A DNA stretch of 24,544 nt, from the IMG/VR virus record IMGVR_UViG_2660238269_000012; one strand, 5' to 3'. The position numbers and the translations under genes were made by a program. Within the stretch, counting starts at the first letter, position 1. Every line of letters begins with the position of its first letter. The notes under the pieces are model-generated. The model did not search any database. It was not told where the DNA came from and worked only from the letters and a program-made list of their open reading frames with translations. Below are positions 10,007-21,238 of this stretch, in pieces. This DNA is from a virus (taxonomy: Duplodnaviria > Heunggongvirae > Uroviricota > Caudoviricetes).

Positions 10007-10759
10007 ATGAACCTTGAAGCCTTACCAAAATATTACTCCCCAAAATCTCCAAAATTGAGCGATGACGCTCCAGCGACAGGCACCGGTTGTTTAACAATTA
10101 CGGATGTAATGGCAGCGCAGGGGATGGTGCAGTCGAAAGCACCACTTGGGTTGGCCTTATTTCTGGCAAAAGTTGGTGTTCAGGACCCTCAGTTTGCGAT
10201 TGAAGGCCTGCTAAATTACGCGATGGCACTGGATAACCCGACATTGAACAAATTGAGTGAAGAAATCCGGTTACAGATTATTCCTTACCTCGTGAGTTTT
10301 GCCTTTGCTGATTACTCCAGGTCTGCGGCAAGTAAGGCTCGCTGTGAGCATTGTTCAGGTACGGGATTTTATAATGTATTGCGCGAAGTGGTGAAACACT
10401 ACAGACGCGGGGAATCTGTAATCAAGGAAGAATGGGTGAAGGAACTATGTCAGCATTGCCATGGTAAGGGCGAAGCCAGCACAGCGTGCAGAGGGTGTAA
10501 GGGTAAAGGGATTGTTCTGGATGAAAAAAGAACCCGGTTTCATGGCGTACCGGTATATAAGATTTGTGGGCGTTGTAATGGAAACCGGTTTAGTCGTTTA
10601 CCGACCACGCTGGCACGACGTCATGTCCAGAAGCTGGTACCAGACCTGACCGATTATCAGTGGTATAAGGGGTATGCGGACGTCATTGGTAAACTGGTAA
10701 CAAAGTGCTGGCAGGAAGAAGCATACGCGGAAGCGCAATTGAGGAAGGTGACGAGATAA
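10007..10759 (+). CDS. quuQ: Q-family late-gene antiterminator
   Basis: Start at MNLEALPKYYSPKSPKLSDDAPATG... (250 aa) with SD GGAG; Cys-rich zinc-binding region (CEHCSGTG, CQHCHGKG, CRGCKGKG, CGRCNG). Position upstream of the lysis genes. Confidence 0.9.
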   Translation: MNLEALPKYYSPKSPKLSDDAPATGTGCLTITDVMAAQGMVQSKAPLGLALFLAKVGVQDPQFAIEGLLNYAMALDNPTLNKLSEEIRLQIIPYLVSFAFADYSRSAASKARCEHCSGTGFYNVLREVVKHYRRGESVIKEEWVKELCQHCHGKGEASTACRGCKGKGIVLDEKRTRFHGVPVYKICGRCNGNRFSRLPTTLARRHVQKLVPDLTDYQWYKGYADVIGKLVTKCWQEEAYAEAQLRKVTR

Positions 10760-10790: not shown

Positions 10791-10819
10791 TTGCATTTTT
10801 CAAAAAATATGGATAAAAT
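10791..10819 (+). promoter_or_regulatory. putative late promoter (PR'-like) downstream of Q
   Basis: TTGCAT, 17-bp spacer, TAAAAT, beginning about 30 bp after the quuQ stop. Confidence 0.55.
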
Positions 10820-10864
10820 TTTTTCAACGATGGGCTTTGTATACCCGACGTTAAGAAAAAGTAG

Positions 10865-10888
10865 AAAACCCGCTGATGAGCGGGTTTT
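10865..10888 (+). terminator. rho-independent terminator (tR'-like) about 50 nt downstream of the putative late promoter
   Basis: aaaacccgct-gatg-agcgggtttt: perfect 10-bp stem, 4-nt loop, then a short U-tract gtgcttt. Confidence 0.65.
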
Positions 10889-11180
10889 GTGCTTTAAATG
10901 GGGCAATGGTAATGTTGAATCTCATCCCGGGACTCATGTCTGTTAACTTATTATTTAGCTGGTGACTTGGTTATTTGCCTGATGTTTAAAATGTTTTCTT
11001 CCAGTACAATGTCCCTAAACACAATGAGTCTGCTTATTATATTATTAGCAGAGCTATTACGGCCAAAGTACAGCATAAGCTTTTAAAGCCAATCAACCAG
11101 TCATCAAGACAGACGGGGTTATTCATAAAAACTCTCCATGTGTGATCCGATGGGGCCTGAAATTAAAGCTTTAATATAGC

Positions 11181-11393
11181 TCATGAAAGGTAAACATTGG
11201 CAGCTGAAGGGCCACGCAGACCATTTATCCGGCAAAATTCCACGCGTAATCCGGTGGTAATTTCTTCTGCATCGCGGAGATTGAGCGCTGAAACATGAAG
11301 CTGGACATCGATACGACCATCGGATGGGGTGATAAGACCCTTGCCGCTTTTGCCGTCAAAGGTTTTGACAATTCCTGTCATTTTACGGGACAA
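11181..11393 (-). CDS. cspF: cold-shock protein family CspF
   Basis: 70-aa [39 protein letters not shown]...; CspA-family fold, recognised as CspF. Confidence 0.9.
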
Positions 11394-11664
11394 AAAAATT
11401 CCTTAATACTGATAACTTGGCGCACTATACACACGTTCCTGAAGAAAGCTATAGTTTTTTGATGGGGTTGAAGATGGCTGGATGTCTAAAATAAACATTG
11501 CTTCATATGTTCAACTATGCGTTAATGATTGCGTCGGTTTGAAGAACAGACGATATACGAAGTAGTTTACTAAAGCAGTTCTCATTTCAGGTGTTATTCA
11601 CTTATTCCTTCTTTGAGTCTCTCCAATTAAGTACGAAGTCGTTTCTGTTATGCAAACCATTTAT

Positions 11665-11677
11665 GCCGAAAGGCTCA
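11665..11677 (+). promoter_or_regulatory. CspA-family 5'-UTR upstream box upstream of the cspB SD
   Basis: gccgaaaggctca matches the conserved upstream box GCCGAAAGGCACA found in cold-shock csp 5' UTRs, just upstream of the cspB start. Confidence 0.55.
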
Positions 11678-11693
11678 AGTTAAGGAATGTAGA

Positions 11694-11909
11694 ATGTCAA
11701 ATAAAATGACTGGTTTAGTAAAATGGTTTAACGCTGATAAAGGTTTCGGCTTTATTTCTCCTGTTGATGGTAGTAAAGATGTGTTTGTGCATTTTTCTGC
11801 GATTCAGAATGATAATTATCGAACCTTATTTGAAGGTCAAAAGGTTACCTTCTCTATAGAGAGTGGTGCTAAAGGTCCTGCAGCAGCAAATGTCATCATT
11901 ACTGATTAA
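11694..11909 (+). CDS. cspB: cold-shock protein CspB
   Basis: 71-aa [71 protein letters not shown]. Confidence 0.95.
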
Positions 11910-12189
11910 AATTCATCGCTCGTCTGTATACGATAACGAAGAAGGCTGATGCCTGAGTAGAGATACGGACAGAGTAGTGAATATTGGATCTCTTTAATAA
12001 AAAGTAAGGAGGTCCAATACATGAAACAATGGCTAGCATATTTGGCAAAATCTTAATCAGGAAAAGTATGCTAACCATTGTGGTGAAGTGCAGGTTTGCT
12101 GCATGAATAGTTTTACAGCAGAAGCTAACTGCTGGCATGGCAAAACAAAGTGCGTAAGTGGATGACTCCCACAAAAAGCACCACAATCT

Positions 12190-12215
12190 CAAACCCGCTC
12201 AGGCGGGTTTTTTAT
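12190..12215 (+). terminator. rho-independent terminator
   Basis: aaacccgc-tcag-gcgggttt stem-loop followed by ttttattat; the U-tract is on the plus strand only. Confidence 0.6.
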
Positions 12216-12662: not shown

Positions 12663-12878
12663 ATGAAATCAATGGATAAGTTAACAACAGGTGTTGCCTA
12701 TGGCACATCGGCGGGTAATGCTGGTTTCTGGGCATTGCAGTTACTCGATAAAGTAACTCCGTCACAGTGGGCTGCAATCGGTGTGCTGGGTAGCCTGGTT
12801 TTTGGCCTGCTGACGTATCTGACAAATCTTTATTTCAAGATTAAAGAAGACAGGCGTAAGGCTGCGAGAGGAGAGTAA
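12663..12878 (+). CDS. essQ: phage-21-type pinholin (S21-like) with dual-start motif
   Basis: [71 protein letters not shown] (71 aa); resembles phage 21 S pinholin including the antiholin/holin dual start (MKSM / MDK). SD GGTGAGG. Confidence 0.85.
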
Positions 12879-12882
12879 TCCA

Positions 12883-13190
12883 ATGACTCAAGACTATGAA
12901 CTGGTTGTGAAAGGAGTCCGTAATTTTGAGAATAAAGTTACGGTAACTGTAGCCTTACAGGACAAAGAACGCTTTGACGGTGAAATTTTTGACCTGGATG
13001 TCGCCATGGAGCGTGTTGAAGGAGCTGCGCTGGAGTTTTATGAGGCAGCAGCCAGAAGGAGCGTCCGGCAAGTCTTCCTGGAAGTAGCAGAAAAATTGTC
13101 AGAAAAAGTTGAGTCTTATCTGCAGCATCAGTACTCCTTTAAGATTGAAAATCCTGCCAATAAGCACGAGCGTCCTCATCATAAATATCT

Positions 13191-13194
<4 letters not shown>
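12883..13194 (+). CDS. ydfR: YdfR-like protein (DUF1327)
   Basis: 103-aa MTQDYELVVKGVRNFENKVTVTVALQDKERFDGEIFDLDVAMERVEG...; between holin and endolysin as in Qin. Confidence 0.8.
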
Positions 13195-14218
<1,024 letters not shown>

Positions 14219-14580
14219 GGTAATATTAAATCGGAACATTTACATCGCGGAATGTAAAATTTAAATAAAAAGGACTCTTCCATGAGCCAAAATTCCTGAA
14301 ATCTTAAGGGTAAGATAAAAGGTCTTAATCAGAATGACACGTTTTATTAATAAATAAAGCTATTCTTTCATTGCTGTGTTTTTCTTTACAAAAGTAATCC
14401 TTGCTATGGGTGGTTAATCATGCGTTAATGGTGTTCTGGTTTGTTACAAATTTATCTGAAGCAGTCATTGTTATAATTTTATTATTTGTACCTCTTGAGA
14501 TTTCCTTGTTGGTTTTTCTCTCTGATATTTTTTTTCGGACCATTCTGCCCAAGGGCTAATTTCTTCAAAAGGTAATAATT

Positions 14581-14793
14581 ATGTCTAACAAAATGACTGG
14601 TTTAGTGAAATGGTTTAACCCTGAAAAAGGTTTTGGTTTCATCACGCCGAAAGATGGCAGCAAAGATGTGTTTGTCCATTTCTCAGCAATTCAGAGCAAC
14701 GATTTCAAAACATTAACTGAGAATCAGGAAGTTGAATTTGGTATTGAGAACGGACCTAAAGGTCCTGCCGCTGTTCATGTAGTGGCGCTTTGA
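14581..14793 (+). CDS. cspI: cold-shock protein CspI
   Basis: 70-aa [70 protein letters not shown]. Confidence 0.95.
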
Positions 14794-14881
14794 GGTAGAC
14801 AATATTACAAACCATATTCACTTTAGATGCCCGTGTTGTCATGGTTCCCAGTATAGAACATCATCTTTTGATGTTTCTGAC

Positions 14882-20663: not shown

Positions 20664-21238
20664 TGGCATTCAGAATGAGTGAACAACCACGGACCATAAA
20701 AATTTATAATCTGCTGGCCGGAACTAATGAATTTATTGGTGAAGGTGACGCATATATTCCGCCTCATACAGGTCTGCCAGCAAACAGTACCGATATTGCA
20801 CCGCCAGATATTCCGGCAGGCTTCGTGGCTGTTTTCAACAGTGATGAGGCATCGTGGCATCTCGTTGAAGATCATCGGGGTAAAACGGTTTATGACGTGG
20901 CTTCCGGCGACGCGTTATTTATTTCTGAACTCGGTCCGTTACCGGAAAATGTTACCTGGTTATCGCCGGGAGGGGAATATCAGAAGTGGAACGGCACAGC
21001 CTGGGTGAAGGATACGGAAGCAGAAAAACTGTTCCGGATCCGGGAGGCGGAAGAAACAAAAAACAGCCTGATGCAGATAGCCAGTGAGCATATAGCGCCG
21101 CTTCAGGATGCTGTGGATCTGGAGATCGCAACGGAGGAAGAAACCTTGTTGCTGGAAGCCTGGAAAAAGTATCGGGTGTTGCTGAACCGTGTTGATACAT
21201 CAACTGCACCGGATATTGAATGGCCAGCACTGCCGTAG
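20663..21238 (+). CDS. tfa: tail fibre assembly protein Tfa
   Basis: 191-aa [44 protein letters not shown]..., near-identical to lambda Tfa; start overlaps the stf stop (TAATGG). Confidence 0.9.

What the first reader, a model, noticed from the sequence alone, without database searches (positions are those of the whole stretch)
10791..10888. Promoter-terminator pair right after Q resembling the lambda PR'/6S RNA/tR' unit
TTGCAT-N17-TAAAAT is followed about 50 nt later by a perfect 10-bp-stem terminator. In lambdoid phages Q modifies RNA polymerase at such a promoter (qut) to read through the terminator into the lysis genes. Here the downstream late region contains cspF (opposite strand), cspB and a small zinc-ribbon gene before the holin, so the unit may still gate expression of the lysis cassette.
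Basis: partly seen in the sequence, partly recalled or inferred. Interest (0 to 1): 0.4.

Follow-up and report, generated by a model that had tools for sequence, protein, structure and literature searches.

The report
Qin prophage late promoter-terminator switch
This is the unannotated late-gene control switch of the cryptic Qin prophage of E. coli K-12, a lambda-type promoter, pause site and terminator placed right after the Q antiterminator gene; it is a textbook kind of element that makes a short RNA of about 67 nt in ordinary cultures.

Summary
The window is E. coli K-12 prophage Qin. The gene upstream (ydfT/quuQ) is a Q-lambda-family antiterminator. TTGCAT-N17-TAAAAT (10791-10819) is followed, at lambda's exact spacing, by AACGATGGG (10826-10834). 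These nine bases are identical to the start of lambda PR' RNA, which contains the sigma70-dependent pause element. A 10-bp hairpin plus T-tract follows (10865-10896).

Published Term-seq places an RNA 3' end at window 10892 in all three growth conditions, and it is not among the Rho-dependent sites. This predicts a 67-nt RNA. The start site is inferred by homology only.

In 88 close relatives, -35 to +17 is about 93% conserved, while sequence beyond the terminator is unrelated (about 30%). At least seven different cargoes follow the terminator, including stx2c.

In 65 of 67 more distant Q-lambda-family loci a terminator follows, typically ending near +64. Qin is therefore the common short form and lambda's 194-nt 6S RNA is the exception.

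Nothing is annotated at this site in NC_000913.3, and no Rfam family matches.

Verdict: an ordinary, previously unannotated member of a known kind.

Side observation: a covarying 5'-terminal hairpin occurs across the family.

The parts
10007..10759 (+). ydfT/quuQ, a Q antiterminator of the Q-lambda family (250 aa as annotated). It is a 'long-arm' form, with two extra CxxCxGxG motifs relative to lambda Q.
   Evidence: RefSeq annotation. Pfam PF03589 E = 4.2e-54, plus DnaJ_CXXCXGXG. phmmer against PDB 7UBM, E = 5e-36. Alignment with the lambda, P22 and phi80 Q proteins keeps the zinc cysteines, G39 and the C-terminal VTR.
10791..10796 (+). -35 hexamer TTGCAT of the late promoter (PR' equivalent).
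   Evidence: Sequence. Invariant in 28 distinct Qin-type variants. The same hexamer is annotated as the pR' -35 in the phi80 record.
10797..10813 (+). 17-nt spacer TTTTCAAAAAATATGGA, the presumed Q-binding element (QBE).
   Evidence: In lambdoid PR' promoters the QBE lies between the -35 and -10 hexamers (PMC4914094; phi80 protein_bind feature). The spacer shares 11 of 17 bases with the lambda spacer. 13 of 17 columns are invariant among Qin-type variants. Binding has not been tested.
10814..10819 (+). -10 hexamer TAAAAT.
   Evidence: Sequence. The variants are TAAGAT and TAGGAT.
10826..10834 (+). Inferred transcription start (A10826), followed by the sigma70-dependent pause element AACGAT and then GGG.
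   Evidence: Identical to lambda PR' +1..+9 with the same 6-nt distance from the -10 hexamer. Kept in 85 of 88 Qin-type copies. The lambda pause is at +16/+17, and the G/C-rich segment sets its position (PMC5001585). No start-site data set could be reached.
10826..10852 (+). Predicted 5'-terminal RNA hairpin: +1-4 AACG pairs with +24-27 CGUU, and G7-9 pairs with C19-21.
   Evidence: Fold of the single RNA, consensus fold of Qin-type variants, and family-wide covariation.
10865..10896 (+). Intrinsic terminator (tR' equivalent): 10-bp stem, GATG loop and tail TTTTGTGCTTT. The mapped RNA 3' end is at 10892.
   Evidence: Sequence. Term-seq 3' end at NC_000913.3 1642356(-) in all three sheets of the table, and absent from the Rho-dependent list. 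The homologous hairpin is annotated as a terminator in phage SfV. The stem is kept through sequence changes in relatives.
10865..10888 (-). The same hairpin read on the minus strand, with tail CTACTTTTTC. It is a possible terminator for the convergent cspF-ynfS transcript.
   Evidence: Terminator scan. No Term-seq 3' end was reported on this strand in the conditions sampled.
10826..10892 (+). Predicted constitutive short RNA of 67 nt, the analogue of lambda 6S RNA.
   Evidence: The 5' end is inferred by homology and the 3' end comes from Term-seq. MFE -26.2 kcal/mol, z = -5.55. No Rfam family reaches its gathering score. Nothing is annotated here in NC_000913.3.
11037..11393 (-). ynfS (11037-11126) and cspF (11181-11393). 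Both are on the opposite strand and would be transcribed antisense by read-through.
   Evidence: RefSeq annotation. Pfam CSD.
11694..11909 (+). cspB, preceded by its own cspA-type 5' UTR thermoregulator (11533-11925).
12191..12210 (+). Second terminator-like hairpin that a Q-modified polymerase would have to pass. It is also used in the other direction.
   Evidence: Scan. Term-seq 3' end at 1641060(+), which is window 12188 on the minus strand.
12663..14218 (+). Lysis cassette: essQ (holin, 12663-12878), ydfR (12883-13194), rrrQ (lysozyme, 13191-13724) and rzpQ/rzoQ (13721-14218).
   Evidence: RefSeq annotation. Pfam Phage_holin_2_1, DUF1327 and Phage_lysozyme.

Best explanation
The segment is the late-gene regulatory cassette of prophage Qin, the counterpart of lambda PR'-qut-tR'.

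Without Q: host sigma70 RNA polymerase initiates at about A10826 from TTGCAT-N17-TAAAAT. Sigma region 2 re-binds the -10-like AACGAT in the first transcribed bases and the polymerase pauses at about +15 to +17. It then terminates at the hairpin 10865-10888, releasing a 67-nt RNA that ends at C10892.

With Q: when QuuQ (YdfT) is made, it should bind the promoter spacer, load onto the paused complex with NusA, and make the polymerase resistant to this and later terminators. Transcription would then run about 1.8 kb through ynfS/cspF (antisense), cspB and ynfU (antisense) into essQ-ydfR-rrrQ-rzpQ.

Shown:
- The sequence elements.
- Homology of Q and of the pause element to lambda.
- Conservation of the cassette as a unit.
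- The RNA 3' end in vivo.

Inferred:
- The start site.
- The pause.
- Q binding.
- Q-dependent read-through in K-12.
For: Identity of the locus:
- The window is 100% identical to MG1655 Qin.
- Q belongs to the Q-lambda family. PF03589 is the Q-lambda family according to PMC9388147.

The promoter and pause element:
- AACGATGGG sits at lambda's spacing from the -10 hexamer.
- The composite motif is expected 0.01 times by chance.
- The required cassette anatomy (Q gene, PR', QBE between the hexamers, pause element, terminator, late genes) is described in PMC9388147 and PMC4914094. Every sequence part is present here.

The terminator in vivo:
- Term-seq finds a 3' end at 1642356(-), which is window 10892. 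Read counts are 103,591 in LB at OD 0.4 and 55,368 in LB at OD 2.0, and the site is also on the third sheet.
- The site is absent from the bicyclomycin (Rho) list.
- It is more abundant than the 3' ends just upstream (64,702 and 44,933), which argues for a nearby promoter.

Conservation as a module:
- Homology to SfV, Stx2c phages, mEp460 and sal3 stops at window 10888.
- Mean pairwise identity is 0.93 for -35..+17 and 0.30 for +81..+110.
- 85 of 88 close copies keep the pause element.
- Isolated phages 2H10 and Tritos have the same Q-PR'-tR'-csp-holin layout.

Wider family:
- 65 of 67 anchored units from other species have a downstream terminator-like hairpin of unrelated sequence. The median stem end is +64; Qin's is +63.
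- phi80, whose record annotates pR', a Q site and a terminator, has the same architecture.
Against: - No transcription-start data could be retrieved, so initiation at 10826 is inferred.
- The -35 hexamer is weak, matching 3 of 6 consensus bases in the N17 reading.
- The TTGACT-like segment that sits just upstream of the pause element in lambda is TTTTTC here.
- The bases at the expected pause position (+16 A, +17 T) differ from lambda's C and G.
- Qin is cryptic and its early region is repressed, so QuuQ may never be made in K-12.
- Read-through would collide with two convergent genes and must pass a further terminator at 12191-12210.
Confidence: 0.85

Rival explanations
1. A relic switch. The promoter and terminator still work, but in K-12 the Q arm is dead because QuuQ is not expressed or not functional. 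The present-day role is then only to make the short RNA and to insulate cspF, cspB and the lysis genes from upstream transcription.
For: - Qin is annotated as a cryptic prophage with a pseudogenised integrase and an IS2 fragment.
- The RNA 3' end is seen in uninduced cultures.
- No paper in the searchable library reports QuuQ activity.
Against: - quuQ is intact and 100% identical in many genomes.
- It keeps the zinc cysteines, G39 and the C-terminal residues whose mutation abolishes lambda Q function (residue list from PMC9388147).
- The lysis genes are intact ORFs.
Confidence: 0.35
2. The 67-nt RNA is itself a trans-acting, Hfq-binding regulatory RNA, as shown for StxS from Stx-phage PR'-tR'. 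Gating of late genes would then be only part of its function.
For: - StxS is a precedent, and its authors propose that antiterminated promoters are a source of sRNAs (PMC7547250).
- Lambda 6S RNA is recovered on Hfq by RIL-seq (bioRxiv 10.1101/2024.10.31.621285).
- The Qin RNA is made constitutively.
- It has an A-rich linker, AAGAAAAAGUAGAAAA, before a terminator with a U-tail.
Against: - No Hfq-binding or target data were found for this RNA.
- The linker is the least conserved part among relatives.
- Its A-run also serves as the T-tract of the minus-strand terminator.
- No Rfam family matches.
Confidence: 0.2
3. The hairpin is mainly a bidirectional terminator for the convergent cspF-ynfS transcript, and its position after Q is secondary.
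For: - The minus-strand reading has a good T-tract and is the one called by the scan.
- The extended A/T arms occur in the Qin, 2H10 and Tritos variants. cspF is annotated downstream in Qin and 2H10, though not in the Tritos record.
Against: - Term-seq reports the 3' end on the Q strand only.
- Relatives with no convergent gene (SfV, Stx2c phages, mEp460, sal3 and other genera) keep a terminator at the same place.
Confidence: 0.3
4. The mapped 3' end belongs to the ydfU-ydfT mRNA (a long 3' UTR), and the promoter-like sequence is not used.
For: - No start-site evidence was obtained.
- The 'orphan' class of the Term-seq study includes long 3' UTRs.
Against: - The promoter and pause element are the best-conserved non-coding bases of the region.
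- The pause element is identical to lambda's.
- The 3' end is more abundant than the ends upstream of ydfU.
Confidence: 0.07
5. The region encodes a small protein. The 51-codon ORF 10791-10946 is annotated as a hypothetical protein in the PhiR42_1 record.
For: The ORF exists and was called by an annotation pipeline.
Against: - It has a TTG start that coincides with the -35 hexamer.
- In close relatives the same frame is cut by stops at codon 25 (Tritos and sal3 types) or 36, and it diverges completely after the terminator.
Confidence: 0.02

Closest known systems
Phage lambda PR'-qut-tR' unit and its 6S RNA
   Same: - Q of the same protein family.
- Promoter directly after Q.
- Identical AACGATGGG at +1..+9, with the same 6-nt gap from the -10 hexamer.
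- 11 of 17 identical bases in the spacer that holds the Q-binding element.
- Intrinsic terminator before the lysis genes.
- The short RNA is made without Q.
   Different: - The terminator stem ends at +63, giving a 67-nt RNA. Lambda's RNA is 194 nt.
- There is no TTGACT-like element next to the pause element.
- Bases at +16/+17 differ.
- Q carries an extra double-CxxCxGxG insertion in the zinc 'arm'.
- 1.8 kb with csp genes on both strands lies before the holin.
Phage phi80 pR' with gp17 (Q), as annotated in JX871397
   Same: - Long-arm Q subfamily.
- Identical -35 hexamer TTGCAT.
- Similar spacer end (CTGGA-TAGATT against ATGGA-TAAAAT).
- Terminator close to the start, with the stem ending at about +69.
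   Different: - Q is only 36-41% identical.
- The pause element is AACGCT.
- The holin follows within 0.4 kb, with no csp genes.
Phage P22 gene 23 late promoter
   Same: Same pause element, and a short leader with a terminator stem ending at about +57.
   Different: Short-arm Q that is nearly identical to lambda Q. The promoter is almost identical to lambda's rather than to Qin's.
The same cassette in SfV, mEp460, Stx2c-converting phages and Salmonella phage 118970_sal3
   Same: - Q is 93-94% identical.
- -35 to +17 is nearly identical.
- The terminator is at the same position, and is annotated as 'putative rho-independent terminator' in SfV.
   Different: Everything after the terminator differs. 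The cargo includes a DNA methylase and, in Stx2c phage PV98-693, an ORF starting MKCILFKW..., a signature I recalled from memory for Stx2 subunit A; it lies 2.6 kb downstream.
StxS, the Hfq-binding sRNA processed from the PR'-tR' transcript of Stx phages (PMC7547250)
   Same: Same origin: a constitutive, prematurely terminated late-promoter transcript in a lysogen.
   Different: StxS is a 74-nt processed 3' fragment of a longer leader with demonstrated Hfq binding and targets. None of this is known for the Qin RNA, and the sequences were not compared here.

Membership tests
Q-dependent late-gene regulatory cassette, Q-lambda type | [quoted passage not shown] | tested here: met
   PF03589 E = 4.2e-54. 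phmmer against Q-lambda structures 7UBM and 4MO1, E = 5e-36 and 1e-23. The stop codon lies 31 nt before the -35 hexamer.
Q-dependent late-gene regulatory cassette, Q-lambda type | A sigma70-type promoter just downstream of Q. | tested here: met
   TTGCAT-N17-TAAAAT. The hexamers are invariant or nearly so in 28 variants. Promoter activity is only indirectly supported, by the downstream RNA 3' end.
Q-dependent late-gene regulatory cassette, Q-lambda type | A -10-like sigma-dependent pause element in the initially transcribed region. | tested here: met
   AACGAT followed by GGG, identical to lambda +1..+9 at the same spacing. Present in 85 of 88 close copies. Pausing itself is not testable here.
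Q-dependent late-gene regulatory cassette, Q-lambda type | A Q-binding element between the -35 and -10 hexamers. | tested here: inconclusive
   The spacer shares 11 of 17 bases with lambda, and 13 of 17 columns are invariant among Qin-type copies. A TTC-R-R-AAAA...TGG pattern is shared with relatives at 63-72% Q identity. No binding assay is possible with these tools.
Q-dependent late-gene regulatory cassette, Q-lambda type | An intrinsic terminator between the promoter and the late genes that stops transcription in the absence of Q. | tested here: met
   Hairpin plus U-tract. Term-seq 3' end at 10892 in three conditions, not Rho-dependent. The structure is conserved through sequence changes.
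Q-dependent late-gene regulatory cassette, Q-lambda type | Late (lysis) genes downstream on the same strand. | tested here: met
   essQ, ydfR, rrrQ and rzpQ at 12663-14218 on the plus strand. They are separated from the terminator by ynfS/cspF (minus), cspB (plus) and ynfU (minus).
Q-dependent late-gene regulatory cassette, Q-lambda type | Q-dependent read-through of the terminator. | not testable with these tools
   This needs in vitro transcription or a reporter with quuQ supplied in trans.
Q-dependent late-gene regulatory cassette, Q-lambda type | A primary transcript 5' end about 7 nt after the -10 hexamer. | not tested
   No start-site table was accessible.
Hfq-dependent sRNA derived from an antiterminated promoter (StxS-like) | A stable short RNA with a terminator hairpin and U-tail. 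| tested here: met
Hfq-dependent sRNA derived from an antiterminated promoter (StxS-like) | Hfq binding and defined mRNA targets. | not testable with these tools
   No data were found. The linker region is not conserved among relatives.
Any Rfam RNA family | A score at or above the family's gathering threshold. | tested here: not met
   There is no hit at this site at gathering thresholds. The best sub-threshold hits are terminator-driven, for example isrK at 16.6 bits against a threshold of 50.

The most novel reading that the evidence does not exclude
The first 4-6 nt of the late transcript are the RNA copy of the sigma-dependent pause element. They form a conserved 5'-terminal hairpin with a complementary segment 10-25 nt downstream, in Qin, lambda, P22, phi80 and most Q-lambda-family cassettes. 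When the pause element varies, the complement varies with it: AACG with CGUU, AACA with UGUU, AAUG with CAUU, and AACGG with CCGUU.

If this element is functional and undescribed, it could protect late mRNA and the short RNA from 5'-end-dependent decay, or act after Q loading. The constitutive 67-nt Qin RNA may in addition be an unrecognised K-12 regulatory RNA.
Probability: 0.3. Interest if true: 0.55.

Novelty: new member of a known kind. Interest (0 to 1): 0.3.

Why it matters
- It fills an annotation gap in the reference E. coli genome: an abundant, condition-independent 'orphan' RNA 3' end gets an origin and a name.
- It shows that the short-leader form (about 65 nt), not lambda's 194-nt 6S RNA, is the usual design in the Q-lambda family.
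- An almost identical cassette precedes an apparent stx2 A-subunit ORF in Stx2c-converting phages. Qin in harmless K-12 could therefore serve as a safe model for how that toxin's expression is gated.
- None of this changes the accepted mechanism.

Tried and rejected
Start-site evidence:
- Thomason 2015 and the SEnd-seq paper are not held.
- The Cappable-seq, RNET-seq and EDL933 TSS supplements have no matching entry.
- No supplements are held for the Rend-seq annotation paper or Conway 2014.

Literature:
- Searches for quuQ, ydfT and the promoter sequence itself found nothing relevant.

Rfam:
- Nothing reaches the gathering score at this site. Sub-threshold hits (rnk leader, Trp leader, isrK, isrJ, P9, OrzO-P) align mainly to the terminator and were rejected.

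The 5' hairpin:
- RNAalifold on 42 diverse leaders gave no structure, because MAFFT produced an ungapped alignment that cannot register loops of different length. I used anchored permutation tests instead.

Other points:
- The first viral-contig scan returned only near-identical copies, so diversity came from the genome scan with an alignment query.
- My terminator detector requires perfect stems. It missed lambda's own tR' and once called the 5' hairpin (L132) a terminator.
- The small-ORF reading was rejected.
- PasD sRNAs lie near PF03589 Q genes in EPEC but are reported absent from K-12, and were not pursued.

Full report
**Where we are**

The 301 bases around the finding are 100% identical to E. 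coli K-12 MG1655 and occur in 1,629 of 5,426 complete E. coli genomes. The window maps to NC_000913.3 on the minus strand: window x corresponds to 1653248 - x. It spans the whole cryptic prophage Qin.

The gene ending at 10759 is ydfT (quuQ), annotated as a putative antitermination protein Q. Downstream lie, in order:
- ynfS and cspF (minus strand)
- cspB (plus strand)
- ynfU (minus strand; the 'zinc-ribbon gene')
- the lysis genes essQ-ydfR-rrrQ-rzpQ/rzoQ (plus strand)

RefSeq annotates nothing between ydfT and ynfS.

**Observation**

TTGCAT (10791-10796), a 17-nt spacer and TAAAAT (10814-10819) are present as described. So is a perfect 10-bp stem (10865-10874 paired with 10879-10888, loop GATG) followed by TTTTGTGCTTT, counting the four U's of the stem.

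Generic promoter-like and terminator-like matches are common in this A+T-rich region: 10 against 6.6 expected and 8 against 4.0 expected in 4 kb. The two matches alone would therefore prove little.

The decisive detail is what lies between them. Six bases after the -10 hexamer comes AACGATGGG. This is identical to the first nine transcribed bases of lambda PR' and sits at the same distance from the -10 hexamer:
- lambda: TAAATT-TGACTC-AACGATGGG
- Qin: TAAAAT-TTTTTC-AACGATGGG

AACGAT is lambda's -10-like sigma70-dependent pause element. The following G/C-rich bases help to fix the pause at +16/+17 (PMC5001585). The composite pattern occurs once in the window, against 0.01 expected.

**The protein**

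YdfT hits Pfam PF03589 (E = 4e-54), which is the Q-lambda family as defined in PMC9388147. It also matches the solved Q-lambda chains (E = 5e-36).

In an alignment with the Q proteins of lambda, P22, phi80 and three other phages, it keeps the following:
- the four zinc cysteines
- G39
- the C-terminal L..VTR

Mutations at several of these positions abolish lambda Q antitermination.

YdfT differs from lambda and P22 Q by an insertion of about 40 residues that carries two more CxxCxG motifs. This is picked up as a DnaJ_CXXCXGXG domain. The insertion lies in the region that forms the DNA- and sigma-contacting 'arm' in lambda Q. The same long arm is present in phi80 gp17 and most other family members.

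**The RNA exists**

Supplementary file 1 of Adams et al. 2021 (PMC7815308) lists a Term-seq 3' end at 1642356 on the minus strand.
- It appears three times in a file that has three sheets, one per growth condition: LB at OD 0.4, LB at OD 2.0 and M63.
- Read counts are 103,591 in LB at OD 0.4 and 55,368 in LB at OD 2.0.
- The printed context is ...AAAACCCGCTGATGAGCGGGTTTTGTGC|TTTAAATGGG.
- The site corresponds to window 10892, 8 nt after the G+C core of the stem.
- It is absent from the same paper's bicyclomycin (Rho-dependent) list.
- It is classed as 'orphan', meaning it was assigned to no gene.
- It is more abundant than the same-strand 3' ends upstream of ydfU (64,702 and 44,933). This fits a promoter just upstream better than read-through from the early region.

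With the start inferred from lambda (A10826), the RNA is 67 nt. It folds into a 5' hairpin and the terminator at -26.2 kcal/mol, z = -5.55. I could not reach any start-site table, so the 5' end remains an inference.

**Comparative evidence, close relatives**

In the phage collection, the Q 3' end, promoter and terminator are found in SfV, mEp460, fifteen Stx2c-converting phages, phiSTEC1575-Stx2k, Salmonella phage 118970_sal3 and others. In most of them the homology ends at query base 189, which is window 10888, the last base of the stem. SfV's record annotates that hairpin as a putative rho-independent terminator.

From these phages and 80 IMG/VR contigs I obtained 28 distinct Qin-type variants.
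- The -35 hexamer is invariant.
- 13 of 17 spacer columns are invariant.
- Mean pairwise identity over -35..+17 is 0.93.
- Mean pairwise identity over +81..+110 is 0.30, and at least seven unrelated sequences follow the terminator.

The variants were collected with AACGATGGGC as the anchor, so invariance at +1..+10 is by construction. Checking the copies that lacked the anchor showed three with one substitution (AATGAT twice, GACGAT once). A fourth (AAAGAT) sits next to a truncated Q. That gives 85 of 88 intact.

The terminator keeps its place while its sequence changes. Examples are CCCGCTGATGAGCGGG, CCCGCCGCTGAGCGGG and CCTCGCTTCGGCGGGG; 3 of 16 consensus pairs show double changes.

The isolated phages 2H10 and Tritos have the same order: Q, promoter-terminator, csp gene(s), holin. 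A late operon interrupted by csp genes is therefore compatible with phage growth.

In Stx2c phage PV98-693, an ORF with the Stx2 A-subunit signal sequence (as I recall it) starts 2.6 kb downstream of the same cassette.

**Comparative evidence, the family**

A scan of one genome per species with a Q alignment gave 80 loci across Enterobacterales. In 67 non-redundant loci I could anchor a promoter plus a -10-like element.

Of these, 65 have a downstream terminator-like hairpin whose sequence is unrelated to Qin's. The median stem end is +64, and 53 lie between +50 and +74. Qin's is +63.

P22 (+57) and phi80 (+69) are also of this short type. phi80's GenBank record annotates pR', a Q-binding site in the spacer and the terminator. 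Lambda's 194-nt leader is the minority design.

Caveats: my detector needs perfect stems. It missed lambda's tR' and made one false call (L132).

**Mechanism**

The established model has four cis elements (PMC9388147, PMC4914094):
- a promoter
- a Q-binding element between the hexamers
- a sigma-dependent pause that holds the polymerase at a 16-25-nt RNA
- a terminator that stops everything unless Q, helped by NusA, has formed a nozzle on the RNA exit channel

All four cis elements are recognisable here, so I adopt this model.

Differences from lambda that might matter:
- The segment immediately upstream of the pause element, where sigma region 4 is repositioned in the lambda loading complex, is TTGACT-like in lambda and TTTTTC here.
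- The bases at +16/+17 are A and T rather than C and G.
- The Q arm that contacts that DNA and sigma region 4 is longer.

Whether these three differences are linked is speculation.

**Rivals**

- A small ORF over the site, annotated in one phage record, is not conserved.
- The hairpin also reads as a terminator on the minus strand and may serve cspF-ynfS. However, the mapped end is on the Q strand, and relatives without a convergent gene keep the hairpin.
- The RNA could have a trans-acting role, like StxS or the Hfq-bound lambda 6S RNA. There are no data for this, and the linker is the least conserved part.
- Q may be silent in K-12. This affects whether the switch is ever thrown, not what the element is.

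**Side observation**

The first bases of the transcript pair with a segment downstream:
- Qin: AACG (+1 to +4) with CGUU (+24 to +27), plus GGG with CCC.
- lambda and P22: AACGA with UCGUU (+19 to +23).

The complement tracks variation in the pause element:
- 33 of 36 AACG leaders contain CGTT.
- All 9 AACA leaders contain TGTT and none contains CGTT.
- AATG leaders carry CATT or TCAT.
- AACGG carries CCGTT.

In 45 representatives below 85% identity, 42 have at least 4 contiguous Watson-Crick pairs starting at +1 or +2. The controls gave 22% after swapping arms between classes (maximum 38% in 2000 trials) and 22% after shuffling (maximum 44%).

In minimum-energy folds of +1..+30, 24 of 43 pair +1 or +2, against 8.7 in shuffles (maximum 16).

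The sequences are related, so these are not true probabilities. I did not establish whether the hairpin has been described before.

**Verdict**

It is a previously unannotated but otherwise ordinary member of the best-known class of phage antitermination switches.

Noticed in passing
window 10826-10852; also L002 788-810 (lambda), L094 (P22) and 40+ loci: A conserved 5'-terminal hairpin in Q-lambda-family late transcripts. The RNA copy of the pause element (+1 to +4/5) pairs with a complement 10-25 nt downstream, and the complement covaries with pause-element variants: AACG/CGUU, AACA/UGUU, AAUG/CAUU and AACGG/CCGUU. 42 of 45 representatives have at least 4 pairs, against about 22% in controls.
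   Followed up: partly
window 10007-10759 (about residues 112-160 of YdfT): YdfT and most family members (phi80 gp17, SF6, Fraca and a Stx2a-phage QuuQ) carry an insertion with two extra CxxCxG motifs in the zinc 'arm'. Lambda and P22 Q have a single zinc ribbon there. The insertion gives a DnaJ_CXXCXGXG Pfam hit.
   Followed up: partly
window 11029-11060 (+), antisense to ynfS: A second Term-seq 'orphan' 3' end at 1642188(-), which is window 11060. It appears in LB at OD 2.0 only (87,904 reads), just after the hairpin TCTGCT...AGCAGA, with no T-tract. It could be read-through from the late promoter, a processed end, or a transcript from a promoter-like site at 11016.
   Followed up: no
window 12188-12210: The hairpin after cspB is used in the opposite direction. 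There is a Term-seq 3' end at 1641060(+), which is window 12188 on the minus strand, presumably ending the ynfU transcript. A Q-modified polymerase would have to pass this hairpin on the plus strand.
   Followed up: partly
L009 (phage HannyBb) 1364-1450 and 3055-3190: HannyBb has a degenerate copy of the promoter and pause region directly after its Q gene. It also has an intact Qin-type copy, with terminator, 1.7 kb further downstream.
   Followed up: no
L058, L064, L086 (IMG/VR) and L110: Rare single-base variants of the pause element occur in otherwise Qin-type cassettes: AATGAT, GACGAT and AAAGAT. The AAAGAT copy sits next to a truncated Q gene, which suggests decay of both partners.
   Followed up: partly
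window 21006-21204 (+); 11533-11925 (+); 14435-14820 (+): Rfam hits above the gathering score: IS009 (221 bits) near the ydfJ/Qin boundary, and two cspA-type thermoregulator leaders in front of cspB and cspI.
   Followed up: no
L101, L123, L134, L162 (genome contigs): Q loci that are enterobacterial by sequence sit in assemblies labelled Veillonella parvula (99% identical to QuuQ), Bacteroides sp. and Chryseobacterium sp. These are probably mis-binned or contaminated assemblies.
   Followed up: no
window 10791-10946 (+): A 51-codon ORF that starts at the -35 hexamer and runs through the terminator is annotated as a hypothetical protein in the PhiR42_1 record. It is interrupted by stop codons in close relatives and is almost certainly spurious.
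   Followed up: yes
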